Positions 4,625 to 37,628 of a stretch of DNA of 64,000 nt are shown here, piece after piece. A model generated the notes under the pieces. The model was given only the letters and a program-made list of their open reading frames with translations, made no database searches and was not told where the DNA came from. The position numbers and the translations under genes are program-made. The DNA is from Candidatus Saccharimonadota bacterium (GTDB lineage: Bacteria; Patescibacteriota; Saccharimonadia; Saccharimonadales; SLHW01): positions 243,071 to 307,070 of the forward strand of contig JBJHDA010000001.1 of the NCBI GenBank assembly GCA_050486305.1. The letters run 5' to 3'. The number at the start of each line of letters is the position of its first letter. The stretch's first letter is position 1.

Positions 4625-5491
4625 ATGGCAAGTACACAGCAGCTAAAGCAGCGCATCACCAGTGTTAAGAATACGAAGCAGATTACCAAAGCAATGGAAA
4701 TGGTAGCTGCCAGTAAGATGCGTCGTGCCCAGGAGCATGCTTTAAAAAGCCGGGATTTCCGACGCTTAGCCCGCCAAATACTCACTCGCCTGAGTGAAGT
4801 TACTGACGTGACGGTCCACCCGCTGTATGTTCAGCGTGATGTCAAGCATCGCTTACACGTATTTATCACAAGTGATCGCGGGCTGGCCGGAGCGTTTAAC
4901 AGCAATCTCTTCCGGGCTTTTATGAATGAGCTGCATCAGGACATCGATAATGGTGTAAAGAGCAGTGTCATCGTGATTGGCCGTAAAGGTGCACGGCTTG
5001 TTAACAAGCTTGAGGGTGTCGAGGTAGTTGCTGCGTACGAAAACTTTCCTGAGTTACCGTCAGCAAAAGAGATCCACCCGATACTCCGTACGGTAATTCA
5101 GCAGTTTACTGACGAATCAATAGACGCTGCTGATGTGACGTACACACACTTTCAGTCAAGTATCAGCCAGGTCGTAACGACAGAGCGGTTACTGCCTGCT
5201 GTGTTCCGTGAAGTAGAAATTTCACCTGATCTCGGCCGGGCAATCGTCGAGCCAGACCCAAAGATAGTACTAGAGCAGGTCACCGAACGTTTGGTAGAAG
5301 TGCAGCTGAACCAAGCCTTTAACGAAAGTCAAGCGAGCGAACATTCTGCCCGGATGATGGCTATGAAGAATGCAACAGATAATGCCGGCGATTTGATAGA
5401 TGATTTAACCCTGTCGTACAATACGGCCAGACAGGCTGCTATCACGCAAGAGCTTGCTGAGATAACGGGTGGCGCAGAGGCAATTAATTAA
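4625..5491 (+). CDS. atpG: F0F1 ATP synthase subunit gamma
   Basis: N-terminal 'LKQRITSVKNTKQITKAMEMVAASKMRRAQ' and C-terminal 'RQAAITQELAEITGGAEA' gamma signatures. Confidence 0.95.
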   Translation: MASTQQLKQRITSVKNTKQITKAMEMVAASKMRRAQEHALKSRDFRRLARQILTRLSEVTDVTVHPLYVQRDVKHRLHVFITSDRGLAGAFNSNLFRAFMNELHQDIDNGVKSSVIVIGRKGARLVNKLEGVEVVAAYENFPELPSAKEIHPILRTVIQQFTDESIDAADVTYTHFQSSISQVVTTERLLPAVFREVEISPDLGRAIVEPDPKIVLEQVTERLVEVQLNQAFNESQASEHSARMMAMKNATDNAGDLIDDLTLSYNTARQAAITQELAEITGGAEAIN

Positions 5492-5500
5492 GGAGTGAGT

Positions 5501-7353
<1,853 letters not shown>

Positions 7354-14041: not shown

Positions 14042-14339
14042 GTGGCCTCCCCTTAACTCTTATTTTTGTTACCTTATATTATCGTGCCGGTGGCTGAGCT
14101 GTCCGTGAGATTAGGCACAATTTTATTTGATAAATGTCACACAAAACAAAATGTACTTGCGTTTATGCGAAATTAGTCGCATAATTCGCAACAGAAATAT
14201 TTGGGTGGCGGTACATTAAGCTAATAACTTCGTTTCATGGAAGTCACTTGAAACATTCCCGGTAATTTGGTCGCTTAGGGGATGCGTAGACAGTAGCGAA
14301 ACCGTTCCGTGATTGAGTCTGTTTGTAAGGAGATTCAAC

Positions 14340-17300
14340 ATGGGTACGGTTCAACTCAGTCAATTTAAGAATATCTTAGGGCGCTCACGCAACATCTTGC
14401 TAGCGTTCGTTTTTATCTTCACCCAGCTTTTCGTCCCGCTGAGTTTTGCGATTAACGTCGCTGAGGCTGGTTCGGACGCAATATCTACCTCGACTCATCA
14501 GGGACAGCTAAAGGATGAGGATACCGGTAACTTGCTTGGATATACTTCCGGCAATGTTACAACCTATAAGGAGCTTGACTCTATTAACTTTAGATTTACC
14601 CTAGACAGCGACGATGAGGCCTCTGGAAGAATGAGGGTCAGTTTCGCTGGCGACATAACAACTGGTCAGCAGTGTGTATTTTTTCAGCAAGCTTTTTCAC
14701 TAGGTACTCATGACAATTCAGCACCAGCTGTTGAAAGTATTTCCGGCGTAGAACCCAGCGTAACGACAGTCGGTACACCGATTAAGGATGGGAATAGGTG
14801 GGCACAGGTATTGGATGTTGACTTCAGCGGCGGCTCGGGTATAGCAGTAGTAAACTATCACTTAACTCTCACAGATGAAGCTGGCAATTGTGGTGGTTCT
14901 TCAACCCACACAAGCTTAGACAATGCAAAACCTGAAGATTTTGATGACCCTGATGACTATACAGACGACTTTAAAACTATTGGTACTCAGTCAGTATCAA
15001 TACCAGCAAAAGACATACTGATACTCCCGTCAATTACCATTATTAAATCGGTTGAAAGCGGTGACGCAGAGCCGCATGAATTTAGTTTTGCTGTGTCCCC
15101 AGAGATTAATGGGCAATCTAGCTTTTCAATTTCGGAGGGTCAAAGTTCAGTGCTCATAGACAATGTTGACCCTGGGTTCCCAGATAATCCAATTGAATAT
15201 ACGTTCACAGAATCAGGACCAGAGGGTTATGTTTTCGATGGAGGATCTGGAGTTAACTGCTCTGTCGTTGATGCTTCAATTGGTACTCCTGATGGACAAA
15301 TGCTAGTTTCCGGACTTGAGGCTAGCTCAAATGAAAACCATGTAAAAAACGCAGAATGTACTTTTAGTAATGTAGAACAAACCGGCTCAATAAAGATTGA
15401 AAAAGCTGCCGATGGCGACCAGGAACAAGACTTTAAATTTACAGCTACTGGCGGCGGTGTCGATGACTTTACTCTAACTGGCACTGACAACAAGACATTT
15501 TCTGGACTTTCAGCTGGCGAATACACATTTACTGAAGAGGATGTTACTGAATTTGGCTGGGATTTGACAGCGATTAGTTGTGAGGACGCAGACGGCACAA
15601 CGTGGGATGTCGACACGCGAACTGCGACAGTTGATCTTGCGGCGGGTCAGGATGTGACCTGTAAGTTTACTAACGTGGAGCGTGGTGAAATCGTAGTCAC
15701 GAAAGAAACTAACCCGTCCGATAGTGAAACGGAATTTGAGATAACTGCATCAACTAATGACGGGACAATTTTTGATGATGCTACGCAAACTATAAAGGAC
15801 GATGGAAGCACTGTAACCTACGGAGTAACGCCAGGTACTTACGATGTGACTGAGAATCTGCCGGAGGGCTGGCGATTGGCAGAAAACGGTTGCTTAGGCG
15901 TCGAGGTGGCTGCTGGTCAGTCAGTTGACTGTACGATTAAGAATGAGCGGCTGGCACAGCTTACAATCATCAAGGAAGCTATCCCAGCAAGCAATCAAGT
16001 ATTTGAATTTTTCACTGACAACCTTTCTCCAGCTGAATTTACATTAGTTGATGATAAGGAAGATGATGACAGTAATATAAAAGTATTTGATAACTTAAAC
16101 CCAGGCGAGATGTATAAGGTTACAGAACAGTCAACTCCAGGATGGCAGCTGACTGACCTGGACTGTAGCTCGACGGCTACGGTTGATAAAGATGCGCGCC
16201 AAGTTACGTATGCCCCTGCACCTGGTGATGATGTGACATGTACGTTTACAAATACGAAGCTTGGTTCAATCTCCGGCACGAAGTTTGAGGCCAATGCTGA
16301 CGGATCAACAAGCAATACATTAGCTGAGTGGACAATTAAACTATTGCTAGAAGGTGCTGAGGTAGACGAGACCGAGACCGATGTTAACGGCAACTACACA
16401 TTTGAAGGCCTTCTCCCGGGCAACTACACGATAATCGAAGTATTAAAAGATGACTGGACACAAATATTTGAGCCAGACGAAGTAGATCTGTCTGCTGGTG
16501 AAAACAGCACGGATAATGATTTCGGCAACTTTGAGAACGTGACCATCAGCGGCTATAAGTGGAATGACCTTGATGGTAACGGTGAATGGAATACCGAAAC
16601 AGAGCCTGGACTAGAAAACTGGGCAATCCACCTCTACCAGAGCGATGACAATACTGCGGAAGGAAATTACGAACCCTTCGCTGATACAACTACGGATGAA
16701 GACGGTTTTTACAGTTTTGACGATATCAGCCCCCTTCCTTCCCGCTTCTACAAGATTTGCGAGGTGCAGCAAACAGGCTGGAAGCAAACCTATCCTAATA
16801 CAGATGACGATTGCCATGAAGTAGAAGTGCTACAATCTGGCACAGATATAACTGATAAAAACTTTGGTAACCAGGGTCGCGGAACCATCCAGGTGTTTAA
16901 GAATGTAGACGAAAACGGCGATGGCACGATTGACAACCAAGGCGCAGACGACTGGGCCTGGGATATAGACGGCGGGGGCAACCTCCAAACCGGCGGACTA
17001 GCTAAAGAGGTAGCCGCGGGAGACTACACAGTTAGCGAACAGATGAAAGACGGCTACCACTTCACCTCAGTTGAATGTACCGTGAACGGAAATGAACTCA
17101 CTGTAGCCCAGACTGAATCATTTGACGTGACAGTTGGTCCGGGAGAAAGCGTGGTTTGTACTTTCGTAAATACTCGTGACACTGGCCAAATAAGGTTAGT
17201 AAAACACCTTGAGCCGAAAAATGACAAAGGGCGGTTTAATCTACACATTGAAGGAGAAGACTTTAGTCATACCAGATGGCTTGCCACACATGGAAGCTCA

Positions 17301-18854
17301 ACTGGCTTTCAGACGGTCGCAACTGGTAAATATACTTTAAGTGAAACCGGAAGTAAGCTATTTAAGACCAATCTCGATGAATACGACACAACGTACAAGT
17401 GTTACCGTGCTGGATTTTGGTGGCCGATACTTGTTGCTAGCGGTGAAGGAGCCGTTATCGAAGATGTTCCGGTGAAAAAGGATTGGAGAGTTACCTGTAC
17501 ATTTACCAACAAGCGAAAACCACAAATCACGGTGATAAAAAATGCCGAGCCAAAGAGCCTGGAGAGATTCTTGTTCTCGATACGTCAGGAAAAGCAGAAC
17601 GACAAACCAGTTGAATTTCCTGGTGTATTTAACGGAGAGCAACCGTTTGATCCGCTCTACTTTGGCGAGCAGTGGTGGTCAAAGCCTATCAGCATCTTTT
17701 CGCTTCGTCACACCCACTCAAGCCACAAGACGAACAGCAATCAGCATACAGAAGTGCTGAAGCCAGGGACCTATAAGATAACCGAGATGAAGAAAAAAGG
17801 CTGGTTCTTAGAAAATATCGAATGCGATGGCATTGACTATACTATTGAGGACAACGCTGTTTATCTGACTGTAGGCTATGGCGACAAAGTTAGCTGTACG
17901 TTTAAGAATGAAAAGGCTGGAGAAGTTGTAGTTACGAAATACGAAGATCTTGAACGTACTGGCTCTAGAAGCGAGACAGACAAGCTACTTGAGGACTGGA
18001 CAATTACTCTTACCTGCAGTGACCAGTATGGCGAAGATTGCGATGACGCAGAGTTGAAGACCGATGAAAACGGACAAGCTGTTTTTGAAAACGTACGGCC
18101 GAACCGCCATTACGAGGTTGGGGAAGTACAGCAGGAAGGCTGGCAATTAATCGGCATTACTTGCTGGACTAATTCTCAGAAATTCCGGTTACTTGGGCCT
18201 AATCCGAAGATATACTACGAGCAAGGAAGCATATCCGTTATGCCTGGTCAAACTGTTCATTGTGAAATTGGAAATGCGCGTGATTTGATTATTGAGCTTG
18301 AAAAAGAGAATGATGCGGATGATGTTCGGTCAATCGGAGATATCGTTACCTATACGTTGACGGTATCGATACCAGAAACTAGCGGCATATCGTACAACAC
18401 GACCGTTACTGACTTGCCACCGGAGAACTTTGAGTACATAGAGGGTAGCTGGACCGTTGATAGCAATAACCTGAATGTAGCTACGGAAGTTGGGGCAGGC
18501 CCGACTTATGCCTCACCTGGCGACTGGAATCTCGGAACACTCTTCCCTGGCGATGAAGTTGTCCTGACATATCAGGCTCGAATTCTAGAAGAGGTAACAC
18601 CGGGCACCTACCCTGACATTGCTTACGCGAGTGGATTTAATACTGACGTGGGCGGAGACATCGTGTACTCTAATGTGCACTTTGCTGATGAGCCATTTGA
18701 TGGGTCGGAAGTTACAGTTGCGGACGAGCGACCAGAGCCGAGAGTTTTGGCCAAAACTGGAGCGCCAGTCACTTGGCAATATATAGCAGTACCGGTATTA
18801 CTGATTGGACTCGCTATCTCACTTGTTCGACGCGAAACGAAAGGAGCGCTCTAA
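14340..18854 (+). CDS. giant cell-surface protein: signal peptide, ~10 Ig/prealbumin-like (Cna-B / SdrD-B / SpaA-like) repeats, DUF11-like domain, LAXTG sorting signal
   Basis: AAGGAG lies 7 nt before ATG 14340, and the N-terminal signal peptide ends ...AINVAEA. A recurrent ~100-aa unit starts 'G.I.V.K' and ends 'V.C.F.N'. 'YKWNDLDGNGEWN' resembles SdrD-B. The C-terminus is LAKTG (18747-18761), then a hydrophobic helix, then RRETK. Confidence 0.9.
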   Translation: MGTVQLSQFKNILGRSRNILLAFVFIFTQLFVPLSFAINVAEAGSDAISTSTHQGQLKDEDTGNLLGYTSGNVTTYKELDSINFRFTLDSDDEASGRMRVSFAGDITTGQQCVFFQQAFSLGTHDNSAPAVESISGVEPSVTTVGTPIKDGNRWAQVLDVDFSGGSGIAVVNYHLTLTDEAGNCGGSSTHTSLDNAKPEDFDDPDDYTDDFKTIGTQSVSIPAKDILILPSITIIKSVESGDAEPHEFSFAVSPEINGQSSFSISEGQSSVLIDNVDPGFPDNPIEYTFTESGPEGYVFDGGSGVNCSVVDASIGTPDGQMLVSGLEASSNENHVKNAECTFSNVEQTGSIKIEKAADGDQEQDFKFTATGGGVDDFTLTGTDNKTFSGLSAGEYTFTEEDVTEFGWDLTAISCEDADGTTWDVDTRTATVDLAAGQDVTCKFTNVERGEIVVTKETNPSDSETEFEITASTNDGTIFDDATQTIKDDGSTVTYGVTPGTYDVTENLPEGWRLAENGCLGVEVAAGQSVDCTIKNERLAQLTIIKEAIPASNQVFEFFTDNLSPAEFTLVDDKEDDDSNIKVFDNLNPGEMYKVTEQSTPGWQLTDLDCSSTATVDKDARQVTYAPAPGDDVTCTFTNTKLGSISGTKFEANADGSTSNTLAEWTIKLLLEGAEVDETETDVNGNYTFEGLLPGNYTIIEVLKDDWTQIFEPDEVDLSAGENSTDNDFGNFENVTISGYKWNDLDGNGEWNTETEPGLENWAIHLYQSDDNTAEGNYEPFADTTTDEDGFYSFDDISPLPSRFYKICEVQQTGWKQTYPNTDDDCHEVEVLQSGTDITDKNFGNQGRGTIQVFKNVDENGDGTIDNQGADDWAWDIDGGGNLQTGGLAKEVAAGDYTVSEQMKDGYHFTSVECTVNGNELTVAQTESFDVTVGPGESVVCTFVNTRDTGQIRLVKHLEPKNDKGRFNLHIEGEDFSHTRWLATHGSSTGFQTVATGKYTLSETGSKLFKTNLDEYDTTYKCYRAGFWWPILVASGEGAVIEDVPVKKDWRVTCTFTNKRKPQITVIKNAEPKSLERFLFSIRQEKQNDKPVEFPGVFNGEQPFDPLYFGEQWWSKPISIFSLRHTHSSHKTNSNQHTEVLKPGTYKITEMKKKGWFLENIECDGIDYTIEDNAVYLTVGYGDKVSCTFKNEKAGEVVVTKYEDLERTGSRSETDKLLEDWTITLTCSDQYGEDCDDAELKTDENGQAVFENVRPNRHYEVGEVQQEGWQLIGITCWTNSQKFRLLGPNPKIYYEQGSISVMPGQTVHCEIGNARDLIIELEKENDADDVRSIGDIVTYTLTVSIPETSGISYNTTVTDLPPENFEYIEGSWTVDSNNLNVATEVGAGPTYASPGDWNLGTLFPGDEVVLTYQARILEEVTPGTYPDIAYASGFNTDVGGDIVYSNVHFADEPFDGSEVTVADERPEPRVLAKTGAPVTWQYIAVPVLLIGLAISLVRRETKGAL

Positions 18855-19528
18855 TGAAACGCCTACTACTATCACTTGCAATTTTACTTGCTCTACCACT
18901 TGTATTTTCTAGCTTGGCTCATGCCGACTTTTCGAGATGGAAGGTAGAAATGTCTGACCCAACAACATCAGACCAGCTACGCAGCTTTAATATTGAGTTC
19001 ACTGCCCTGACAGTCGAGGACACGACAATAACCGTCCGGCTCATAGAGAACGGCACGCAGATTGGCGACGATAGAGTAACGCCAAGCGGCGGAGGTTCTG
19101 GCGTATTCCACGTAACCGTACCTGAAGACGGTGTGTATGCGTACCACTTGCGCTCTACCAGCAACTCAGAAACTAGAAATACAGAAACCAGAAACGTCAG
19201 AGTGTCTACCGTTGATGACGAGACGACAATAGAAGTTGACCCAGAGCTAACACCAGAGGAAGAAGCGCAATTAATACAAGCGCAAACTGGCCAGCCAGTA
19301 GCCGGAACGCAGGTTGGTGATGGTGAAGCCACAGACGCAGACGGCGAAATTACCGACGAGGCAGCCGTAACTGATGAGGACGAGAATGGTGATGTACTTG
19401 GTGTTGACGATGACGAAGACGACGAAGACGATGGAACCGGTGCAATCTTACGCAACATCCTTATCGTGATTGCGTTACTCGGGGTTATGTACTATATCTT
19501 CTTCCGCAAACGAGGAAACGAAAGCTAA
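18854..19528 (+). CDS. secreted, C-terminally membrane-anchored acidic protein (224 aa)
   Basis: Its ATG overlaps the upstream TAA as TAATG. Signal peptide is MKRLLLSLAILLALPLVFSSLAHA. It has a D/E-rich tract and a C-terminal TM helix followed by FRKRGNES. Confidence 0.75.
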   Translation: MKRLLLSLAILLALPLVFSSLAHADFSRWKVEMSDPTTSDQLRSFNIEFTALTVEDTTITVRLIENGTQIGDDRVTPSGGGSGVFHVTVPEDGVYAYHLRSTSNSETRNTETRNVRVSTVDDETTIEVDPELTPEEEAQLIQAQTGQPVAGTQVGDGEATDADGEITDEAAVTDEDENGDVLGVDDDEDDEDDGTGAILRNILIVIALLGVMYYIFFRKRGNES

Positions 19529-23334: not shown

Positions 23335-26301
23335 GTGAAGAATAGTCCGGAACTAGAGAGTTCATCAGTTATGCCACCAGCGAATATTATTATTCTTGGT
23401 TTGCCTGGCTCAGGAAAAACTACGCTTGGTGAATTGATGGCTGATGGAAACCCTGGGATGGAGTATGTATCTGTCGGGGAGATATCACGCGGATTACCTG
23501 AAGGCGATGAAAGGCGAGGGTACGTCGACAGCCTTTATGCTGAATTTAACAGCCCTGTTGGAAATCCAGATTTTTTTATTGAATTAGTAAGACCATCAAT
23601 CCAAGATGCCAGGGATAGAAGCAAAGGGATAATACTTGATGGCTTACCCAAAAAGCCAGAAGAGGTTGAACCCTTAAATAGGCTTCTTGAAGAAGAAGGC
23701 ATTAAGGTTGACGGTATTGTGATTTGTGAAGTTTCGCCTTTCACTGCTCTTCAGCGCGTTATTGATAGAGGGCCTCGAGAAGGTGGTTTAGATACGATTG
23801 ACACTGCGATAAATCGAGGAGCTGCATACTGGAAAGCGATCGAGGGCTTTAAGAATAAGCTCGGTGGGTTTCTCGGTGTTAAGATTGTTAACGTTGATAC
23901 GGAAAATCTAGATCCACAAACTGCGGCACAGACAGCAACAGATGTTTTAAACACAATACGACTCAGAGAAGCAAGCGCAAATGTTATCGACATAAAAACA
24001 AGTGAAGTAACTCTGGATGAAAGCGAGCTGCTCCGGATTCAAGAAAAGTTTGAGGCTAACGATCAGAAAGAAGCAATGTCGGCATTGTCTGATTTATTTG
24101 TGCCAGAAAAGTTCCGGCCACTTGTAGAAGCAGTTCTAGAGGCTGATCCAGAGACCAGCCCCGACGATATTATTCTCGAAATAGTCTCAGAAAACCCAGA
24201 GTTTGAAAACATGCCGCATTCTGCTCGTCGCTATGCAGGTATGTTGGCGAGAAATGTATACAGCCCTTTAAAAAACCTCGCCAGTGTTATTCCTGATGAG
24301 GCAAGACTGCGTGCAGAAGGACGGCTAGAGCCTGAGGCGCTTGGCGAAGTTCTTAGAGAGGCACTGGTGGCGAAAGAAATCATTCACTGTTATCAATATA
24401 AGGCGAACAGCGTTAAAATATCTGACGAATTTGTTGGCGAGGAATACGAAAACAGAAAAGAAGACCTGGAATACACCGAGTCATTTCTTAGAGATGAGGG
24501 GGCGTTGCCGGATGGCATGACGCTCAGATCTTTAATGATGATTCAGCCTAAGTACTGGAATATATTTACATCGAGTGTACTACTTGGCTCAATTGATGGT
24601 AATTACCAAAAGCGGACCAATAGTCTCCCAGGCTCACATCATTCATTGTCAGTACCCATTGATATGCCACGGCGCATGATAGCAAATTCAATCGGAGAAT
24701 ATCAGCCTTTCATAGAGGCGGTCTCTACAACCGAAAGAAGCGGTTTTGATACAAGCCTCGGCTTTTTACATGTGGTAGGGATGGATGAATCAGGTAGAGC
24801 ATTCCAGGTTGAGTGGCCTCTGCTTATGCAAGACTCAAGGTTAGCCACACATCCAAACTCATTACTTAGGGATATGTTGGCTCGTGGGCATGAAATATAT
24901 TTTAATCACGATTTTTGGCACAATCTTGTGCCAGTTTATGCCGAAAGCTTTAATCTTTACCATCCACATGCTCCCATTGCTTACGGCGGACTGATGCCTG
25001 AGTACTTAGAGTTCGGCAAGAAGCTTAGATCGGAAAAAGAGGAATACGAGATATTCGTCGCGATGGCGCATGCACAGGCACAGCAATACAGAATGATGCA
25101 GGATCCTGAGTATCGAAGGTCACAGATAGAGGCTGCTCTGACAATAATAAACGACATTCCCCACCTTAAGCAGCAGCTCACACAAAGTGACGGGACTGAG
25201 TTTGCCGAAAGTGTCTCGGAATATTTTATGACAGTAACAGTAGGCAGATTACTTAATATTATTCCGCCGGACTCGGAAGATCTTGCGCCTATTGTCGATA
25301 AGCTGGAGCTTGACCCAAGCCTATCACAAAATATTTCAAACTCTGATGTCCTAAAGCTGCTCTTTACCCAAAGGATGGCACTTGCAACAAAAGAAAGTCG
25401 ATTAAGTTTCATGCAGGATATTCTTTCGGAGCCAGAGATTTCCGAATCTATAAAGGAAGAAATTATTGAGAGCTTGCTGCCAACCATCAACAATATTGAA
25501 CGAAAGCCAGCATTGACTAATGAGCTGACCGAGGAGATATGTAAGTATGAGCAAATCGTTTCTATTGCGCTACAGTATATTGAGCCTGATAGTGCCCATG
25601 CAGAGTCTGGCTCAGAAGCGTTATATGATGCACTAGTGTCAATAGGACTACAGCCGCTAATCGACCGGAAAGAGAGCCAAGTTGAGTTAAGAGGGGTGTC
25701 GTTGTTGAGGTGGCTGGCAATTAATGCACCACAGCGTGATCCCCTAAAAGGTCATATGGAAAAAGTACACGGGAAGCCAGGGGTTGTGTTTGGAGACGAA
25801 GTCGTATCCCCAGCCGAAGTAGTGAGGCAGCACACTGAAACCATTACTCAAAATCAAGATGTGTATGAATATCGGAAGTGGGCGAGAGAATTTGGGCAAA
25901 CGCTTGCACTTAATATCTATGACACCCTTTTTCATGATGGTCAAAAAAGCAACAGAGATCATAGAACTACGCTTTACATTCTTTCAAGATACAGCGGAGT
26001 TGAGGATGGTCAAAGTAAGATCATAAGAAATGGCATGAAAAAACTCGATTTGATGCTTGATGCGCTTGTGAATGCTGATTATTCGATCCAGGCAACAGAC
26101 CTTCAGGACATCACTGCGTTAGCCGATGTATGCGAAGCATATAGTCCTGAAGTTGGAGAGGAGATTCGGGATATAGTGAAGCGCTATTCATTCCTGCACC
26201 AACAAGAGGTATCCTATCAGTCATTTGCTGCAACGAACTACACTGACTCAAAATCAACCATAGAAGAATCTACAATGAACCTGTTTAGCGGTGAAGGCTA
26301 G
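23335..26301 (+). CDS. 988-aa fusion protein: N-terminal adenylate/nucleoside-monophosphate-kinase-like P-loop domain plus ~770-aa uncharacterised C-terminal region
   Basis: 'IIILGLPGSGKTTLGELMA' P-loop, 'VSVGEISRG', and 'ILDGLPKKPEEVEPL' (AK 'ILDGFPR' equivalent). Nothing recognisable after about aa 215. Confidence 0.8.
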   Translation: MKNSPELESSSVMPPANIIILGLPGSGKTTLGELMADGNPGMEYVSVGEISRGLPEGDERRGYVDSLYAEFNSPVGNPDFFIELVRPSIQDARDRSKGIILDGLPKKPEEVEPLNRLLEEEGIKVDGIVICEVSPFTALQRVIDRGPREGGLDTIDTAINRGAAYWKAIEGFKNKLGGFLGVKIVNVDTENLDPQTAAQTATDVLNTIRLREASANVIDIKTSEVTLDESELLRIQEKFEANDQKEAMSALSDLFVPEKFRPLVEAVLEADPETSPDDIILEIVSENPEFENMPHSARRYAGMLARNVYSPLKNLASVIPDEARLRAEGRLEPEALGEVLREALVAKEIIHCYQYKANSVKISDEFVGEEYENRKEDLEYTESFLRDEGALPDGMTLRSLMMIQPKYWNIFTSSVLLGSIDGNYQKRTNSLPGSHHSLSVPIDMPRRMIANSIGEYQPFIEAVSTTERSGFDTSLGFLHVVGMDESGRAFQVEWPLLMQDSRLATHPNSLLRDMLARGHEIYFNHDFWHNLVPVYAESFNLYHPHAPIAYGGLMPEYLEFGKKLRSEKEEYEIFVAMAHAQAQQYRMMQDPEYRRSQIEAALTIINDIPHLKQQLTQSDGTEFAESVSEYFMTVTVGRLLNIIPPDSEDLAPIVDKLELDPSLSQNISNSDVLKLLFTQRMALATKESRLSFMQDILSEPEISESIKEEIIESLLPTINNIERKPALTNELTEEICKYEQIVSIALQYIEPDSAHAESGSEALYDALVSIGLQPLIDRKESQVELRGVSLLRWLAINAPQRDPLKGHMEKVHGKPGVVFGDEVVSPAEVVRQHTETITQNQDVYEYRKWAREFGQTLALNIYDTLFHDGQKSNRDHRTTLYILSRYSGVEDGQSKIIRNGMKKLDLMLDALVNADYSIQATDLQDITALADVCEAYSPEVGEEIRDIVKRYSFLHQQEVSYQSFAATNYTDSKSTIEESTMNLFSGEG

Positions 26302-26527: not shown

Positions 26528-27283
26528 ATGCTAAAAAAACTGATACCGGTAGTGGCGATCGTACTCGTGTTAGGAGCGGTTTTTACAGTGATGCCATCGA
26601 GGGCTGAAGGAAGCACAAGCACTGTTGATTATACCGGGCAAGGATTTGATAACGGAAATTTAGAAACGGTAAAATGTGATCCGTTTGACACTGGTCAAGC
26701 ATCAAGCGAAGGGCTGACGGAAGAAACCGGCTACCTGCACTGGATTTTAGCTGGCTCTCAGGCTGATTCTGCTACGCTCACCGGACCTTGGGGTACGATT
26801 GACATGGTGAAGGCCGGTGGAGAGCAAGGTCAAGGCGCATTTCATGGAGCGACAGAATACCACGCTCTTGAAGCATTAATCGGTAACGTGTACGCAACGC
26901 ATGATGGAGATGGTGCAAACCCACAGTTGACTGTAAGTAACGGGTGCCCTGGCGAACCAGTTGAACCTCCCGAACCACCAGAGCCACCTGAACCGCCGGA
27001 ACCTCCCGAACCACCAGAGCCACCCGAACCTCCTGAGCCACCACTACCAGTAGGAGGCCCGATTAGAGAGCCGGAGCAGCCACGTCCCCAAGGGGAGCCA
27101 GTTGTAGTTGCTGAGCGGGAGCAAGAGGGAGAGGTTCTCGGAGCACAAGTAATTGCTCCAGAAGGTCCGGTTGACGCAGGAATGGGAGTTGCCGGAATAG
27201 CAATAAGCTCTTTATTTGGCCTAGGTAATTCCGTAGCGGCAATTGGTTATGGTACTTCCAGGCTTCGTAAGAAAGAATTTTAA
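26528..27283 (+). CDS. secreted protein with (PEP)n repeat stalk and C-terminal hydrophobic/basic anchor
   Basis: Signal peptide MLKKLIPVVAIVLVLGAVFTVMPSRAEG, then 'EPVEPPEPPEPPEPPEPPEPPEPPEPPEPPLP'. The C-terminus is a hydrophobic segment followed by RLRKKEF. Confidence 0.75.
   Translation: MLKKLIPVVAIVLVLGAVFTVMPSRAEGSTSTVDYTGQGFDNGNLETVKCDPFDTGQASSEGLTEETGYLHWILAGSQADSATLTGPWGTIDMVKAGGEQGQGAFHGATEYHALEALIGNVYATHDGDGANPQLTVSNGCPGEPVEPPEPPEPPEPPEPPEPPEPPEPPEPPLPVGGPIREPEQPRPQGEPVVVAEREQEGEVLGAQVIAPEGPVDAGMGVAGIAISSLFGLGNSVAAIGYGTSRLRKKEF
26963..27043 (+). repeat. coding tandem repeat (9-nt PEP codon unit, with a 26-nt exact copy at 36-nt period)
   Basis: GAACCTCCCGAACCACCAGAGCCACC occurs at 26963-26988 and again at 26999-27024. 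Confidence 0.8.
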
Positions 27284-27292
27284 AGGACATGA

Positions 27293-28240
27293 GTGGTGGC
27301 AACAAAGAAAGCAGCCACTAAAAAGAAGGCCAGCAAGCGGCAACCACCCAAAAGCAAGTTGCCGCTTGATCGTGTCGGTAAAAAAACAAGTTCTAGTCGA
27401 AGCACGAAAGCAAAGCAAGCACCCAGCGTAAAGAAAAAGGCAGCAAAAGCTAGGCCTACAAAACAGGTCTCTCGAAAAAAACCAGCGCGTACAAGGTATA
27501 AAAAGAGGCAGCTAAGTATACGGCTCGGCCCAAACGTAACATTAGAAATCACGCTAAAGAATTCTAGGTCTAAGGCGAAAAAATCTAAGTCTCGGCGGTT
27601 AAGTAAAAAGCAATTGCAGCTAGCACATAAACGACGCCAAATTTCAGCAGTCGCGTTCGTAGTATTTGGCGTTATCGGCACCGTTTATTTTGCTAGCAAC
27701 CTGTTCCAGTCTGAATCGCCTCCCCCAGTTGTGTATTCGCCACCGGCACCAGCCGAAATCGCACAAACAGAACTAGAGAGGGCCGCTGGGCTGCCAGCCT
27801 CTGAACCGGTGCATTTGCAAATTCCGGATGCCGATATTGACACATCGCTTATAACCGTAGGCCGTAACAGTGACGGCACTATGGAGGTGCCGGAATCATT
27901 CGAAGTAGCTGGGTGGTATAAATACGGCCCGACTCCGGGAGAAATCGGGCCGTCAATCATAGTTGGTCATGTTGATAGTATTGCGGGTCCGGCCGTGTTC
28001 TGGCAGCTTAGCCAACTAAAGCCTGGTCAGCTGATTGAGATAAAAAGAACAGATGGTACTTTGGTTACGTTTGCCGTGACCGACAGCAAGCAGTTTGAGC
28101 AAGATAACTTTCCTACAGATGAGGTGTACGGCAATATTGACTATGCGGGCCTGCGACTTATAACTTGCGGCGGATGGTTTGACCGCGATGTCGGCCGGTA
28201 TAGTCATAACACGGTGGTGTATGCCAGGCTGCAAGAGTAG
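27293..28240 (+). CDS. sortase (class E/F-like) with ~110-aa polybasic N-terminal tail and one TM helix
   Basis: 'IIVGHVDS' (catalytic His), 'LRLITCGG' (TLxTC-type Cys), and 'RYSHNTVVYARL' (Arg). The N-terminus is K/R-rich up to the TM helix 'ISAVAFVVFGVIGTVYFA'. GTG start is 10 nt after the previous stop. Confidence 0.85.
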   Translation: MVATKKAATKKKASKRQPPKSKLPLDRVGKKTSSSRSTKAKQAPSVKKKAAKARPTKQVSRKKPARTRYKKRQLSIRLGPNVTLEITLKNSRSKAKKSKSRRLSKKQLQLAHKRRQISAVAFVVFGVIGTVYFASNLFQSESPPPVVYSPPAPAEIAQTELERAAGLPASEPVHLQIPDADIDTSLITVGRNSDGTMEVPESFEVAGWYKYGPTPGEIGPSIIVGHVDSIAGPAVFWQLSQLKPGQLIEIKRTDGTLVTFAVTDSKQFEQDNFPTDEVYGNIDYAGLRLITCGGWFDRDVGRYSHNTVVYARLQE

Positions 28241-32430: not shown

Positions 32431-34377
32431 CTACTCCCCTCTTATTCGTAGCGCTTGCATTGCATCGCTGTCGTTTATTAATCCATTATCATCGACAAAT
32501 GCATCGCATTTCAGGTCTATCATGTGCGCATATTTTATTCGAATCTGGTTATACTGCTGCCCACGTAGCTGATTAATTACACTGTCGTCACCTCGCCGAA
32601 TTCCACGAAATATATCCGTCACAAGTCCACCGCCGTCATCTGTACCGGCAATGCTATCGGTGTCACCGTAAAAGTCGGTGATTGCTACGGCGTAAATTTT
32701 GTATAGAGACTCTTCATACTCTTCTTGCGTTACAGTTAAGTTGTAAGAATCACTCTCTTCGTCGTAGATCAACTTACCTTGCTCTTCAAGTTCGTCATAA
32801 TAATCAACCAAGCCAAGCATGACAGAGGTACTTATGTGATCATACGCCACTAAGATTTGCTTAGTCGCCTCGATTGCGTTTTGCTCGCCTTCTGTGAGCT
32901 CCGGTATGCGTTCAGGCAGGTCTTCCATGCTATACCCGAGCTCATTAAACCGCTGCTCTACTTCTGCTGGGTTCATACCAAACAGTCCGGTCATCGTGCC
33001 GGTTTTTGCTCTTGGTGCTTCCTCGAACAAATTGCCGTTCGAGGCGTACTCAATCAACGAATATATTGTTGCTAGAGTAAAAGATCGCGGTAGCTGTAAG
33101 TCGCTTGGGTGGAGTTCCCGAGCAATATCTACACACCTTTCATACTGCGTAACAGTGCTGTCGAAAAAGCTCATCCCAGGAAACAACTCGGAAGTGCTAC
33201 TTAGTTCGGTTTCGTTGACCGTCTCAGTCGGTTCGTTTCGCGACTCTTCCACTGGTATTCTTGTAAGTTCTTCTGAGCCGGCTTCATCACTTTTTATCGT
33301 TTCCGGCTGAATATGTTCAATCTTATCTGATTCAGCCTCGCTCAGTCCTAGTGGTGCCGGCGATTCATTCAATGCGGGAGTATCGTTCGAGTTCACCTCT
33401 CGATCGCTCGTTCCTGCCGGGTTCTGTATGCCATCAGTCTCTACCGGCTCAGCTCGGCTTTCTCTGTCTAGAAATGAAGGTGCTGAGAAGCTGAATACCA
33501 TTGCCGCCGATGCTGCAAGACAAACGGCTCCTGCATGTTTAGCGCGCAATGGTCGTATGCGACGGATTTGTTTTTTCTCTCCGTCAATTGTGGGTAAATT
33601 GAATTTCTCCGTTGTGTCTTTATGTGTCGTTGAGTTTTGGGTTATTTGCGTTGTCTTTGCTTCGCTTTGACTGGTCGGCACTTTACCTAATAGGTGCTCT
33701 ACGTTTACTTGCGGCCCTCCCCGCGCTTCATAATATTCAAGTATCCGTTCCACCTCTGCAGTTCTTTGGCTTTCTTTATGAGCTTCTTCGCTACCTAATT
33801 CATCGGCATGATCTGCTAAGGTCTCCTTAAAGTCACGGAGTATTCGCGCTTCTACCTCAGGAAAAAGTGTTTCTTCTGAATCAAATGACTCTGCAGTAGC
33901 TTCGTCTTGCTCCTCTGGCCTAACTGTAGGTTGTGCCAGGTTTTTTGTATCTCTTGTTTGTCCGGTGTTTTTGTCTGCTGCATTTTTTTCGGGAGCGCCG
34001 GGCTCAGAATATGCTCTTTTTTCAGCTAATGCTGTCATGGTGGACTCGATAAAATCCGGTGATTTACCGGTTGCAGCCATACTTTCACGCAGTCTTACAT
34101 AAATGCCGTCCGCGTATTCAGCTGGAGTTGGGGTCGATCCATGGTCTCGATTGGATTCATCTGTCGTAGCTCGAAGTTGCGATGCTTTACCATCAATGCA
34201 TATACTGCCGGTTCGCGGATCGAAAAAATTCTCTGCAGGATCAATGTGTAGACTAGCGGCATGCACCTGCATCAGCTCGTCATCAACGAACGTTGTAGTC
34301 TCGGACTGCTCCAATGTCTTAACCGTACCCAGCTCCGTAAACCTTTCACGTCCATTTTGTGCGTTAGATCCAGTCAT
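32431..34377 (-). CDS. 648-aa hypothetical protein with one central TM helix
   Basis: SD-like GGGGTG upstream. TM helix 'AGAVCLAASAAMVFSFSAP' is near aa 300. Its stop lies 9 nt before the downstream hydrolase start. Confidence 0.75.
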   Translation of the reverse strand: MTGSNAQNGRERFTELGTVKTLEQSETTTFVDDELMQVHAASLHIDPAENFFDPRTGSICIDGKASQLRATTDESNRDHGSTPTPAEYADGIYVRLRESMAATGKSPDFIESTMTALAEKRAYSEPGAPEKNAADKNTGQTRDTKNLAQPTVRPEEQDEATAESFDSEETLFPEVEARILRDFKETLADHADELGSEEAHKESQRTAEVERILEYYEARGGPQVNVEHLLGKVPTSQSEAKTTQITQNSTTHKDTTEKFNLPTIDGEKKQIRRIRPLRAKHAGAVCLAASAAMVFSFSAPSFLDRESRAEPVETDGIQNPAGTSDREVNSNDTPALNESPAPLGLSEAESDKIEHIQPETIKSDEAGSEELTRIPVEESRNEPTETVNETELSSTSELFPGMSFFDSTVTQYERCVDIARELHPSDLQLPRSFTLATIYSLIEYASNGNLFEEAPRAKTGTMTGLFGMNPAEVEQRFNELGYSMEDLPERIPELTEGEQNAIEATKQILVAYDHISTSVMLGLVDYYDELEEQGKLIYDEESDSYNLTVTQEEYEESLYKIYAVAITDFYGDTDSIAGTDDGGGLVTDIFRGIRRGDDSVINQLRGQQYNQIRIKYAHMIDLKCDAFVDDNGLINDSDAMQALRIRGE

Positions 34378-34490
34378 CTCTTACACCCCGGTGCTTTTCT
34401 GTGTGCGTACAATTACCCCTAGCAGACTTTGTATGCTTTTTCTGGTTTCGTGCTGCGTGAGCTTTGTAGAGTATTGCATGCCTATTCCCT

Positions 34491-35747: not shown

Positions 35748-35955
35748 AGTACTACACCTTCTATTATTTGCGCATAAATCAAACTTATTACTAAATATTA
35801 TTTGGATAATAGTACTAAATAATATTGTTGTCAAATACATTGCATAATTAGTAAACGTAAGGGTTTTCAGGTGTAACACATACGATAAATGAACCGAACT
35901 ACGAGCTATATACCTATATTCGTTACACGAAATAAGGCGTAGCTGGTGTTTTGCT

Positions 35956-37452: not shown

Positions 37453-37628
37453 TGCTTTTGATTTACTGAAATCGCTACAGTAGCCCTCTTGTAAATCAGG
37501 CCTAGAAAGCCCGGGCTCTGTATTTGTTAACCTCATTATTATATAATAACATATCTTTGACAAAACAACAACAGTAGCATAAATAAATCATTGATAATAT
37601 CACGATTTGTTGTATAATTTATCACCTA

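What the first reader, a model, noticed from the sequence alone, without database searches (positions are those of the whole stretch)
15030..18290. Giant LAXTG surface protein built from ~10 Ig-like repeats, most with a conserved cysteine pair
Repeats of ~90-130 aa begin 'G-x-I/V-x-V/I-x-K' and end with '[VA]-x-C-[TKE]-[FI]-x-N' (AECTFSN, VTCKFTN, VDCTIKN, VTCTFTN, VVCTFVN, VTCTFTN, VSCTFKN, VHCEIGN). Each of these has a second Cys ~25-45 residues upstream (VNCSV, ISCED, NGCLG, LDCSS, VECTV, YKCYR, IECDG, ITCWT). That implies one disulfide per domain. The series is interrupted by Cys-free Cna-B/SdrD-B-type units (nt ~16260-16900) and capped by a DUF11-like domain. Disulfide-stapled stalk domains are unusual for sortase-anchored adhesins, which more often use isopeptide bonds. 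They would give a rigid ~1500-aa fibre, an obvious candidate for host attachment if this is an epibiont.
Basis: partly seen in the sequence, partly recalled or inferred. Interest (0 to 1): 0.55.

Follow-up and report, generated by a model that had tools for sequence, protein, structure and literature searches.

The report
Doubly cross-linked sortase-anchored stalk adhesin
This is a 1,504-residue cell-wall-anchored surface fibre of a Saccharibacteria (TM7) bacterium, and its stalk domains carry both a Lys-Glu-Asn isopeptide triad and a conserved cysteine pair, a combination already published for these Pfam families, so the finding is real but ordinary.

Summary
The gene at 14340..18854 (+) encodes a secreted LAKTG-anchored protein.

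The interpretation needs correcting.
- The repeats are CnaB-type domains of Pfam SpaA_4, SpaA_2, SpaA_3, SpaA and SdrD_B. A "YxVxE" glutamate completes the triad in all ten units.
- The cysteine pair therefore adds to the isopeptide bond and does not replace it.
- In 2,120 homologous domains, 1,986 have both Cys and 2,032 have K/E/N.
- Direct-coupling analysis ranks K-E first and C-C second. It places the two cysteines opposite each other on adjacent antiparallel strands.
- A 2025 survey (PMC12617251) already reports predicted disulfides in 99.5% of SpaA_4, 95.5% of SpaA_2 and 99.5% of SpaA_3 isopeptide domains.
- The domain type occurs in about 24,500 representative proteins.

The organism is a Saccharibacterium. 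A class F sortase lies 8.4 kb downstream. No disulfide oxidase is in the window. The N-terminal 180-residue beta-sandwich has no family assignment. Verdict: new member of a known kind, low interest.

The parts
14340..18854 (+). Gene for the 1,504-aa surface protein. ATG 14340 is the real start; the TTG at 14313 is only the longest-ORF start. Stop codon TAA at 18852-18854.
   Evidence: ORF. (AAGGAG then ATG). (P0001, 1504 aa, 100% identical).
14340..14468 (+). Signal peptide: a basic n-region, the hydrophobic core ILLAFVFIFTQLFVPLSFA, and a likely cleavage near AEA/G. The boundary is approximate.
   Evidence: Read directly from the translation. Inference; no predictor was run.
14469..15017 (+). 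N-terminal all-beta domain (residues ~53-235) with invariant C121/C193 and two invariant His. It has no Pfam family and is the putative ligand-binding tip.
   Evidence: no Pfam hit at E<=5. (conserved in 14 homologues; invariant residues). (AF2 pLDDT 86.6, all beta). (only weak Foldseek hits to cohesin, CBM3 and integrin-leg beta-sandwiches, TM <=0.37).
15018..15371 (+). Unit 1, SpaA_4-like CnaB domain: K245 / E300 / C316-C349 / N353.
   Evidence: SpaA_4, 21.5 bits when scanned alone.
15372..15674 (+). Unit 2, SpaA_4: K364 / E408 / C423-C450 / N454. This unit was modelled.
   Evidence: 51.7 bits. (AF2 pLDDT 95; nine strands, with the Cys on strands 66-70 and 93-99).
15675..15944 (+). Unit 3, SpaA/SpaA_4: K464 / E514 / C527-C540 / N544. 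It has the shortest Cys-Cys loop, 13 residues.
15945..16253 (+). Unit 4, SpaA_4: K554 / E605 / C618-C643 / N647.
   Evidence: 54.7 bits.
16254..16529 (+). Unit 5, SpaA/SdrD_B-type CnaB domain without Cys: K657 / E709 / N739 (the Asn is assigned from the 'DFGN' motif).
   Evidence: The Asn assignment is an inference from the motif.
16530..16871 (+). Unit 6, SdrD_B-like: K749 / E817 / N853 ('NFGN'). It has its own Cys pair, C816 (directly before the catalytic Glu) and C834.
   Evidence: 33.9 bits. The pair is conserved as Y-x-[VI]-C-E...C in orthologues.
16872..17171 (+). Unit 7, SpaA_2/SpaA_4: K863 / E909 / C922-C949 / N953.
   Evidence: 38.4 bits.
17172..17510 (+). Unit 8, SpaA_3: K964 / E1011 / C1030-C1062 / N1066.
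   Evidence: 33.3 bits.
17511..17909 (+). Unit 9, SpaA_4 with a ~50-residue insertion: K1076 / E1158 / C1171-C1195 / N1199.
17910..18275 (+). Unit 10, SpaA-type: K1209 / E1271 / C1284-C1317 / N1321, plus an extra loop pair C1235/C1243.
18276..18722 (+). Unit 11, DUF11 ('CLIPPER', CnaA-like) domain. Candidate triad K1331 / D1367 / N1454.
   Evidence: DUF11, 31.5 bits against a cut-off of 24.6. (TIGR04226 isopeptide-forming domain, 28.3 bits against a cut-off of 30). The triad is inferred from conservation in the orthologues and was not tested.
18747..18851 (+). Cell-wall sorting signal: LAKTG (18747-18761), a hydrophobic helix, and the RRETKGAL tail.
   Evidence: The closest orthologues have LAKTG or LARTG; others have LVNTG, LADTG or LPATG.
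18854..19528 (+). Co-transcribed downstream gene (the TAATG overlap joins it to the giant gene). It encodes a 224-aa secreted protein with an acidic linker and a C-terminal TM anchor. Function unknown.
   Evidence: (no family). (a 49%-identical orthologue in the same overlapping position in L005).
27293..28240 (+). Class F sortase (catalytic LITCGG), the candidate anchoring enzyme.
   Evidence: Pfam Sortase, 5e-20. (NF033748 class F sortase, 183 bits against a cut-off of 166)..

Best explanation
The gene encodes a monomeric, sortase-anchored fibrillar surface protein (adhesin type) of a Saccharibacteria (TM7) bacterium.

**Architecture.**
- A signal peptide exports the protein.
- The C-terminal LAKTG motif, TM helix and basic tail make it a sortase substrate.
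- An unclassified 180-residue beta-sandwich sits at the far end.
- Eleven tandem Ig-like domains form the stalk: ten CnaB-type and one CnaA-type DUF11.

**Cross-links.**
- Each CnaB unit has the triad for a self-catalysed Lys-Asn isopeptide bond. The Lys is on the first strand, the Asn is the last residue of the last strand, and the Glu lies in YxxxE.
- This bond ties the first strand to the last, so tension along the stalk bypasses the fold.
- Eight units also have a cysteine on the last strand, four residues before the Asn. It faces a cysteine on the neighbouring antiparallel strand.
- The last strand is therefore bonded to both of its neighbours.
- The disulfide lies inside the isopeptide-closed loop. 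It should therefore add little resistance to pulling. It more likely adds thermal and protease stability, or holds the last strand in register during folding before the isopeptide forms.

**What is shown and what is inferred.**
- Shown: the domain families, the triad and Cys-pair positions and their family-wide conservation, the coupling pattern, the sorting signal, and the nearby sortase.
- Inferred: that the bonds actually form, that an MdbA/VKOR-type oxidase elsewhere in the genome makes the disulfides, and that the tip binds the host cell surface.
For: **Families.** SpaA_4 (170 bits for the whole protein), SpaA, SpaA_2, SpaA_3, SdrD_B and DUF11.

**Triad and Cys columns.** K/E/C/C/N residues were located in each unit.

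**Family-wide conservation.**
- Among 438 full-length domains, K10 is 92%, E57 92%, C70 95%, C96 98% and N100 92% conserved.
- Among 2,120 domains from 203 proteins, 1,986 have both Cys, 65 have neither, 69 have only one, and 2,032 have K/E/N.
- The 65 domains with neither Cys carry hydrophobic pairs instead: S/L, I/V, L/L or F/V.
- The 65 domains that lost both K and E keep the Cys pair in 64 cases. The two links are therefore independent of each other.

**Direct coupling on 2,216 domains.**
- Rank 1 is K10-E57, rank 2 is C70-C96, rank 6 is E57-N100 and rank 11 is K10-N100.
- An antiparallel ladder 68-98 / 70-96 / 72-94 / 67-99 links the Cys strand to the last strand.
- A parallel ladder 7-93 / 9-95 / 11-99 links strand A to the last strand.

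**Structure.** The AF2 model of unit 2 has pLDDT 95, with strands at 4-11, 66-70 and 93-99. The best Foldseek PDB hits are Gram-positive pilin CnaB domains. Profile hits in the PDB are pilins: PitB, RrgA and GBS ancillary pilins.

**Literature.**
- PMC12617251 lists SpaA_4, SpaA_2, SpaA_3 and SdrD_B as predicted Lys/Glu/Asn isopeptide domains. It finds predicted disulfides in 99.5%, 95.5% and 99.5% of SpaA_4, SpaA_2 and SpaA_3 isopeptide domains.
- FimP and SpaA pilins have an isopeptide and a disulfide in one CnaB domain (PMC3485203).
- An MdbA-like oxidoreductase family is enriched in CPR bacteria and is sometimes adjacent to VKOR; sortase is found in more than half of CPR (PMC6744442).

**Anchoring and taxonomy.** Sorting signal. 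Class F sortase 8.4 kb downstream. An orthologous locus also has a sortase 4 kb downstream. The best named hits for ATP synthase beta are Saccharimonadales/Saccharibacteria at 82-83% identity.
Against: - No bond was observed.
- The coupling between near-invariant columns rests on few loss events: 12 proteins for the Cys pair and 19 for K/E. Domains within one protein are not independent, so the Fisher P values overstate significance.
- No DsbA, MdbA, VKOR or thioredoxin-like gene is in the 64-kb window. The rest of the genome could not be read.
- Foldseek E-values against the PDB are weak (>=5e-3). No solved structure of this sub-family exists.
- The sortase is class F, and its motif preference for LAxTG is not established here.
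- The adhesive role of the tip rests on architecture only. Fold matches for it are not significant.
Confidence: 0.8

Rival explanations
1. One reading: the stalk domains are stapled by disulfides instead of isopeptide bonds, making this an unusual alternative design for a sortase-anchored adhesin.
For: The Cys pair is real and is conserved in 8 units.
Against: - All ten CnaB units keep the full Lys/Glu/Asn triad at the canonical positions.
- 1,902 of 2,120 homologous domains have both the triad and the Cys pair.
- K-E is the strongest coupled pair in the family.
- These families are published as predicted isopeptide domains.
Confidence: 0.04
2. The cysteine pairs stay reduced, or act as a redox or metal switch, and are not permanent structural disulfides. 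This could apply because the organism lives in low-oxygen habitats or lacks an oxidase.
For: No oxidase gene is in the window. The habitat is unknown.
Against: - The cysteines face each other on adjacent strands and sit next to the buried isopeptide Asn.
- When lost, they are lost together and replaced by hydrophobic pairs. That is typical of a buried structural disulfide and not of a metal site.
- AlphaFold-database models place the sulfurs within bonding distance in 99.5% of SpaA_4 isopeptide domains.
- CPR genomes commonly encode MdbA-like enzymes.
Confidence: 0.08
3. The protein is a pilus subunit that a pilus-specific sortase polymerises head to tail, not a single wall-anchored fibre.
For: CnaB and DUF11 domains and sortase signals also occur in pilins. 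PDB profile hits are mostly pilins.
Against: - There is no YPKN-type pilin motif.
- The neighbouring sortase is class F, not class C.
- Eleven tandem stalk domains plus a distinct tip is the fibrillar-adhesin layout, whereas pilins have 2 to 4 domains.
- No pilin gene cluster surrounds the gene.
Confidence: 0.04
4. The fibre is real and cross-linked but does not mediate host attachment. It could serve as a surface spacer or sheath component, in nutrient or particle binding, or in self-aggregation.
For: - The tip domain has no recognisable ligand-binding family.
- Published work on Saccharibacteria attributes host binding to type IV pili and only proposes additional close-range cell-surface adhesins, without identifying them (PMC11623550).
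- Homologous stalk proteins occur in free-living Pseudomonadota, cyanobacteria and archaea.
Against: The architecture matches fibrillar adhesins. The tip domain and the two-gene operon are conserved among related small-genome bacteria.
Confidence: 0.2

Closest known systems
Pfam SpaA_4 (PF24514), SpaA_2 (PF19403) and SpaA_3 (PF20674): CnaB-like intramolecular isopeptide domains, as surveyed in PMC12617251
   Same: - HMM matches to these families.
- A Lys/Glu/Asn triad at the same relative positions as the paper's examples (for example Lys704/Glu766/Asn814 for SpaA_4).
- A co-occurring disulfide: 99.5%, 95.5% and 99.5% of isopeptide domains in the three families.
- Tandem use in the stalks of fibrillar adhesins.
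   Different: - The host lineage is Saccharibacteria. The paper's disulfide-rich phyla are Actinomycetota, Pseudomonadota, Chloroflexota and Acidobacteriota, and 'other' bacteria score 2.8%.
- The tip domain here is unclassified.
- Nothing differs at the level of the domains themselves.
Actinobacterial shaft pilins: FimP (Actinomyces oris) and SpaA (Corynebacterium diphtheriae), both with solved structures
   Same: - CnaB domains that contain both an isopeptide bond and a disulfide (PMC3485203).
- In FimA one Cys lies directly before the catalytic Glu, as in unit 6 here (C816-E817).
- Export, oxidative folding by MdbA/VKOR and sortase handling are the accepted pathway there.
   Different: - Those are 3-domain pilins with a pilin motif, polymerised by class C sortases. 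This protein has 12 domains, no pilin motif and a class F sortase nearby.
- The disulfide positions differ. FimP C385-C449 joins a sheet to a hairpin, whereas here the two Cys are cross-strand partners next to the isopeptide Asn.
DUF11 / CLIPPER domain (PDB 9IFR)
   Same: The last stalk unit matches DUF11 above Pfam's cut-off. Its orthologues conserve candidate Lys/Asp/Asn residues.
   Different: It has no Cys and therefore no CTTC-type disulfide. It carries a ~30-residue insertion. The triad was not verified here.
Staphylococcal Sdr-family B repeats and Cna B repeats (stalks of MSCRAMM adhesins)
   Same: Tandem CnaB-fold stalk units project a ligand-binding tip away from a sortase-anchored C-terminus. 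Units 5 and 6 match SdrD_B.
   Different: Classical SdrD B repeats are Ca2+-stabilised. Only 36 of 9,185 were predicted to carry isopeptides. Here the triad is present in both units, and unit 6 also has a Cys pair.

Membership tests
Sortase-anchored (LPXTG-type) cell-wall surface protein | N-terminal Sec signal peptide | tested here: met
   Basic n-region plus hydrophobic core at residues 10-52, read. No dedicated predictor was run.
Sortase-anchored (LPXTG-type) cell-wall surface protein | C-terminal sorting signal: LPXTG-like pentapeptide, then a hydrophobic helix, then a basic tail | tested here: met
   LAKTG (1479-1483), 22 hydrophobic residues, then RRETKGAL. Orthologues carry LAKTG, LARTG, LVNTG, LADTG or LPATG.
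Sortase-anchored (LPXTG-type) cell-wall surface protein | A sortase encoded in the genome | tested here: met
   Class F sortase at 27293..28240. Its specificity for LAKTG was not tested.
Sortase-anchored (LPXTG-type) cell-wall surface protein | Covalent linkage to peptidoglycan | not testable with these tools
   Needs biochemistry.
CnaB-type intramolecular isopeptide domain (SpaA_4 / SpaA_2 / SpaA_3 / SpaA / SdrD_B) | Profile match above the curated cut-off | tested here: met
   Whole protein: SpaA_4 170 bits (cut-off 27.3), SpaA 82.9, SpaA_2 73.7, SpaA_3 67.2, SdrD_B 59.2. Scanned singly, units 2, 3, 4, 5, 6, 7, 8 and 10 pass a cut-off. Units 1 and 9 fall just below (21.5 and 23.1 bits).
CnaB-type intramolecular isopeptide domain (SpaA_4 / SpaA_2 / SpaA_3 / SpaA / SdrD_B) | Lys on the first strand, catalytic Glu, Asn on the last strand | tested here: met
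   Present in 10 of 10 units. The Asn of units 5 and 6 was assigned by motif. 2,032 of 2,120 homologous domains have K/E/N. K-E, E-N and K-N are all among the top 11 couplings.
CnaB-type intramolecular isopeptide domain (SpaA_4 / SpaA_2 / SpaA_3 / SpaA / SdrD_B) | CnaB (prealbumin-like) beta-sandwich fold | tested here: inconclusive
CnaB-type intramolecular isopeptide domain (SpaA_4 / SpaA_2 / SpaA_3 / SpaA / SdrD_B) | The isopeptide bond actually forms | not testable with these tools
   Needs mass spectrometry or crystallography.
Disulfide-bonded isopeptide domain (as in PMC12617251 Table S4) | Conserved Cys pair at fixed positions | tested here: met
   8 of 8 SpaA_4/2/3-type units. 1,986 of 2,120 homologous domains.
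Disulfide-bonded isopeptide domain (as in PMC12617251 Table S4) | The two sulfurs lie within bonding distance | tested here: inconclusive
   Indirect evidence only: the coupling ladder puts the residues opposite each other on adjacent antiparallel strands, and the published AlphaFold-database statistic is 99.5%.
Disulfide-bonded isopeptide domain (as in PMC12617251 Table S4) | An extracytoplasmic thiol oxidase (DsbA/MdbA with DsbB/VKOR) in the genome | tested here: inconclusive
   None in the 64-kb window. The remaining ~566 kb of the contig could not be read. Such enzymes are common in CPR genomes.
DUF11 / CLIPPER (CnaA-like isopeptide domain) | Profile match above the cut-off | tested here: met
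   31.5 bits against a cut-off of 24.6.
DUF11 / CLIPPER (CnaA-like isopeptide domain) | Lys/Asp/Asn triad | not tested
   Candidates K1331/D1367/N1454 are conserved in the four orthologues read by eye. There was no alignment to 9IFR (one search gave no hit).
Sortase-assembled pilus shaft pilin | Pilin motif (YPKN-type Lys) and a class C sortase | tested here: not met
   No YPK motif. The neighbouring sortase is class F.
Thioester-domain (TED) adhesin | TED profile match with a conserved Cys-Gln pair | tested here: not met
   No Pfam family in residues 10-240 even at E<=5. The only candidate Gln (W-x-Q) is replaced by Val in 4 of 15 homologues. The two invariant Cys look like a disulfide pair.

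The most novel reading that the evidence does not exclude
This protein, its unclassified N-terminal beta-sandwich and the co-translated 224-aa membrane-anchored partner would together form a Saccharibacteria-specific close-range host-attachment device. This would be the kind of unidentified 'additional cell-surface adhesin' proposed to act after type IV pili. In this reading the buried cross-strand disulfide is not redundant. It is made first, by an MdbA-like oxidase, and it sets the last strand in register so that the isopeptide can form. Attachment competence would then depend on extracellular redox conditions.
Probability: 0.12. Interest if true: 0.55.

Novelty: new member of a known kind. 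Interest (0 to 1): 0.2.

Why it matters
- The finding adds a clear Saccharibacteria example to a documented class: fibrillar adhesins whose stalk domains carry both an isopeptide and a disulfide.
- It shows from sequence statistics alone where the two links sit relative to each other. Both are on the last strand, four residues apart, one to each neighbouring strand.
- For epibiont biology, the useful leads are the tip domain with no known family and the conserved two-gene operon, not the cysteines.
- For protein engineering, these small (~100 aa) doubly locked domains could serve as very stable scaffolds or Tag/Catcher precursors.

Tried and rejected
**Searches that did not deliver.**
- Looking up the source contig through P0001 failed: not on record. 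The genome-collection scan returned only distant relatives, a Moraniibacteriota and a Zarconia. The rest of the genome could therefore not be searched for MdbA/VKOR.
- The whole protein against PDB sequences gave nothing at E<=0.01.
- Unit 11 against the PDB gave no usable hit to 9IFR.
- Cluster look-up gave no organism names. Taxonomy was instead taken from ATP synthase beta hits.

**Analysis that had to be redone.** The first direct-coupling run on 484 domains was dominated by gap and near-neighbour artefacts and was discarded. It was repeated on 2,216 domains with gaps excluded from the score and a sequence separation of at least 6.

**Ideas considered and rejected.**
- Thioester domain in the N-terminal region.
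- Pilin identity.
- Chance occurrence of the cysteines.
- The 'GCPHC' thioredoxin-like motif at about nt 1705 on the minus strand. It lies in a 63-codon antisense ORF inside the ATP synthase a-subunit gene and is spurious.

Full report
**1. What is there.**

The region lies inside one long ORF, 14313..18854 on the + strand.
- The sequence upstream reads GTAAGGAGATTCAACATG, so the real start is the ATG at 14340 behind an AAGGAG ribosome-binding site.
- The product is then 1,504 aa, identical to a database protein found on a single 629,769-bp contig (P0001).
- Residue numbers below use the 1513-codon ORF.

The protein begins with a signal-peptide-like segment. It ends in VLAKTG, followed by 22 hydrophobic residues and RRETKGAL, which is a classical sortase sorting signal.

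**2. Checking the observation.**

- The protein has 22 cysteines, which I read as 11 consecutive pairs.
- The other proteins of the window have 0 to 5 cysteines each.
- An alignment of the repeat units puts both cysteines in the same columns in eight units.

Three details need correction.
- The Cys-Cys spacing is 13 to 33 residues, not about 25 to 45.
- The 'Cys-free' interruption is only half Cys-free. Unit 5 has no cysteine, but the SdrD_B-type unit 6 has its own pair, C816 and C834. C816 sits directly before the catalytic glutamate. This pair recurs as Y-x-[VI]-C-E...C in orthologues.
- There are two further pairs: C121/C193 in the N-terminal domain and C1235/C1243 in a loop of unit 10.

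**3. What the repeats are.**

Pfam assigns the stalk to the 'prealbumin-like fold' families SpaA_4 (170 bits), SpaA, SpaA_2 and SpaA_3, plus SdrD_B and a terminal DUF11.

Scanned one by one, the units come out as follows:

| Unit | Best family |
|---|---|
| 1, 2, 4, 9 | SpaA_4 |
| 3, 10 | SpaA |
| 5 | SdrD_B and SpaA, nearly tied |
| 6 | SdrD_B |
| 7 | SpaA_2 |
| 8 | SpaA_3 |
| 11 | DUF11 |

These are CnaB-type (DUF11: CnaA-type) domains.

- The Lys is at the end of 'G-x-I-x-V-x-K' on the first strand.
- The Asn ends 'C-T-F-x-N' on the last strand.
- The third member, the catalytic Glu, sits in a 'G-x-Y-x-[VF]-x-E' motif in the middle of every unit.
- All ten CnaB-type units have the complete triad.

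The cysteine pair is therefore an addition to the isopeptide chemistry, not a substitute for it.

**4. Family-wide test.**

I built an HMM from the window's units and collected homologous domains. These came from the 58 homologues and the 150 best proteins of an exhaustive profile search.
- In 438 full-length domains, the five most conserved columns are exactly K10 (92%), E57 (92%), C70 (95%), C96 (98%) and N100 (92%).
- In 2,120 domains from 203 proteins, 1,986 have both cysteines, 65 have neither, 64 lack only the first and 5 lack only the second. 2,032 have K/E/N.
- The 65 double losses come from 12 proteins and are replaced by hydrophobic pairs (S/L, I/V, L/L, F/V). This is as expected for two buried side chains that touch.
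- The 65 domains that lost both Lys and Glu (mostly Glu to Gln) come from 19 proteins. They keep the cysteine pair in 64 cases, so the two cross-links are independent modules.
- These counts are not phylogenetically independent, so the very small Fisher P values are only indicative.

**5. Where the cysteines sit.**

I used two indirect routes instead.

The first route was a model. AlphaFold2 on unit 2 with a 72-sequence alignment gave pLDDT 95 and nine strands. The Lys is on strand 4-11, the first Cys is at the end of strand 66-70, and the second Cys is on the last strand, 93-99.

The second route was mean-field direct-coupling analysis on 2,216 domains (effective number 1,928).
- It ranks K10-E57 first and C70-C96 second. 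These stand far above the rest, scoring 14.4 and 9.2 against 4.4 for the next pair.
- E57-N100 ranks 6th and K10-N100 ranks 11th.
- Flanking pairs form an in-register antiparallel ladder: 68-98, 70-96, 72-94 and 67-99.
- The first strand pairs in parallel with the last strand: 7-93, 9-95 and 11-99.

The last strand therefore lies between the first strand and the cysteine strand. It is tied to the first strand by the isopeptide and to the cysteine strand by a cross-strand disulfide four residues upstream.

An earlier run on 484 domains was dominated by gap artefacts and was discarded.

**6. What is already known.**

A 2025 survey of intramolecular isopeptide bonds (PMC12617251) is directly relevant.
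- It lists SpaA_2, SpaA_3, SpaA_4 and SdrD_B among families with a predicted Lys/Glu/Asn bond.
- It states that disulfides are prevalent in SpaA_2, SpaA_3 and SpaA_4.
- Its Table S4 gives 376 SpaA_4 isopeptide domains with a predicted disulfide (99.5%), 235 for SpaA_2 (95.5%) and 195 for SpaA_3 (99.5%). [quoted passage not shown]

Solved actinobacterial pilins provide structural precedent (PMC3485203).
- FimP and SpaA have an isopeptide and a disulfide in one CnaB domain.
- FimA has a cysteine directly before the catalytic glutamate, as in unit 6 here.

The domain type is abundant. 24,498 of 1.84 billion representative proteins match at E<=1e-3 and 4,509 at E<=1e-30, with up to 34 copies per protein.

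No solved structure of this sub-family exists.
- PDB sequence and profile searches find only Cys-less pilins.
- Foldseek gives weak hits led by streptococcal pilins.

**7. Organism and surroundings.**

The organism is a Saccharibacterium.
- The ATP synthase beta subunit encoded in the window (5965..7353) has its best named relatives in Candidatus Saccharimonadales/Saccharibacteria at 82-83% identity.
- Together with the 630-kb contig, this places the window in Saccharibacteria (TM7, Patescibacteria), a lineage whose cultivated members are epibionts.

Several neighbouring features are relevant.
- A class F sortase (NF033748, 183 bits against a cut-off of 166) lies at 27293..28240.
- An orthologous locus also has a sortase 4 kb downstream of the giant gene.
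- The gene immediately downstream (18854..19528) overlaps the stop codon (TAATG) behind its own AAAGGAG.
- That gene encodes a 224-aa secreted protein with an acidic linker and a membrane anchor. It has no family assignment.
- It has a 49%-identical orthologue in the same overlapping position in a related contig. This is a conserved two-gene operon.

No DsbA, MdbA, VKOR, DsbB or thioredoxin-like gene occurs in the window, and the rest of the genome could not be reached. Published comparative genomics reports that an MdbA-like oxidoreductase family is enriched in CPR bacteria and is sometimes adjacent to VKOR. It also reports sortase in more than half of CPR genomes (PMC6744442).

**8. The tip.**

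Residues ~53-235 match no Pfam family even at E<=5.
- The domain is conserved in 14 homologues, with invariant C121/C193, two invariant histidines and a GSSxH motif.
- AlphaFold2 gives an all-beta model with pLDDT 86.6.
- Foldseek finds only non-significant resemblance to cohesin, CBM3 and integrin-leg beta-sandwiches (TM <=0.37).
- It is not a thioester domain. The only candidate Gln is not conserved.

Its position at the far end of the stalk suggests ligand binding. That is inference from architecture alone.

**9. Mechanism proposed.**

- After Sec export, each CnaB unit folds.
- A membrane-bound thiol oxidase (inferred, not found here) closes the cross-strand disulfide.
- The Lys-Asn isopeptide then forms autocatalytically with the help of the Glu.
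- The sortase cleaves LAKT/G and links the protein to the wall.
- The isopeptide joins residue ~10 to the last residue of each ~100-residue unit. Tension along the fibre is therefore carried by the cross-links and the short linkers, and the stalk cannot unfold.
- The disulfide lies inside that loop and is shielded from pulling. Its likely contribution is thermal and protease stability, or registration of the last strand before isopeptide formation.
- Eleven units of roughly 4-5 nm each would give a fibre of about 50 nm. This estimate is my own and comes from typical CnaB domain dimensions.

**10. Comparison between relatives.**

Proteins sharing the tip domain carry 6 to 19 CnaB-type units (excluding a partial sequence, P0054, with one) and 18 to 39 cysteines. 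Their sorting motifs are LAKTG, LARTG, LVNTG, LVDTG, LADTG or LPATG. Stalk length therefore varies between strains, as is usual for fibrillar adhesins.

**11. Verdict.**

The disulfide inference is well supported, though indirectly. The claim that this is an unusual alternative to isopeptide bonding is wrong, because both links are present and the combination has been published for exactly these families. This is a new member of a known kind. The parts still worth attention are the unclassified tip domain and the conserved partner gene.

Noticed in passing
window 18854..19528 (+): This gene overlaps the giant gene's stop codon (TAATG) and has its own AAAGGAG. It encodes a 224-aa protein with a signal peptide, a ~120-aa domain, a long acidic linker and a C-terminal TM anchor. 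It has no Pfam or NCBIfam family. A 49%-identical orthologue sits in the same overlapping position in L005 (4795..5514).
   Followed up: partly
window 14469..15017 (+), residues ~53-235 of the giant protein: The N-terminal beta-sandwich matches no Pfam family and has no significant structural neighbour. It is conserved in 14 homologues with invariant C121/C193, H62 and H199 (ORF numbering) and a GSS-x-H motif.
   Followed up: partly
window 27293..28240 (+) and 26528..27283 (+): The class F sortase carries a ~120-residue Lys/Arg/Ser-rich N-terminal extension. The gene just upstream encodes a secreted protein with a (PEPPE)n repeat and a C-terminal TM helix plus an RKKEF tail, but no LPXTG-like motif.
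   Followed up: partly
window 57647..60172 and 60272..62797 (+): Two tandem genes encode 841-aa P-type cation ATPases. They are 78% identical over the full length with no gaps, which indicates a tandem duplication.
   Followed up: partly
window 5495..5962 (+): An extra 155-aa ORF with no Pfam match sits inside the F-type ATP synthase operon, between the gamma (4625..5491) and beta (5965..7353) subunit genes.
   Followed up: no
window 23335..26301 (+): In this 988-aa protein only the first ~170 residues match anything (an adenylate-kinase-like P-loop). The remaining ~800 residues are unassigned.
   Followed up: no
window 32431..37563 (-): Three consecutive large genes (648, 462 and 535 aa) have no confident Pfam family. 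They lie next to a 972-aa protein with an M23 peptidase domain (29503..32421).
   Followed up: no
window 14313 vs 14340: The longest-ORF start (TTG 14313) is not the real start. ATG 14340 has the Shine-Dalgarno sequence and matches the deposited protein length.
   Followed up: yes
L003 8069..8701 and L005 5537..7428: In a more distant orthologous locus (P0005) a sortase gene lies 4 kb downstream of the giant gene. In L005 the gene order after the giant gene (small partner gene, 224-aa gene, Zincin_1 gene) matches the window, which shows local synteny.
   Followed up: partly
homologous domains: In the few domains that have lost the isopeptide Lys, the catalytic Glu is nearly always changed as well (mostly to Gln), while the Asn and the Cys pair are kept. 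This looks like a recurrent 'isopeptide-off, disulfide-on' variant of the domain.
   Followed up: partly
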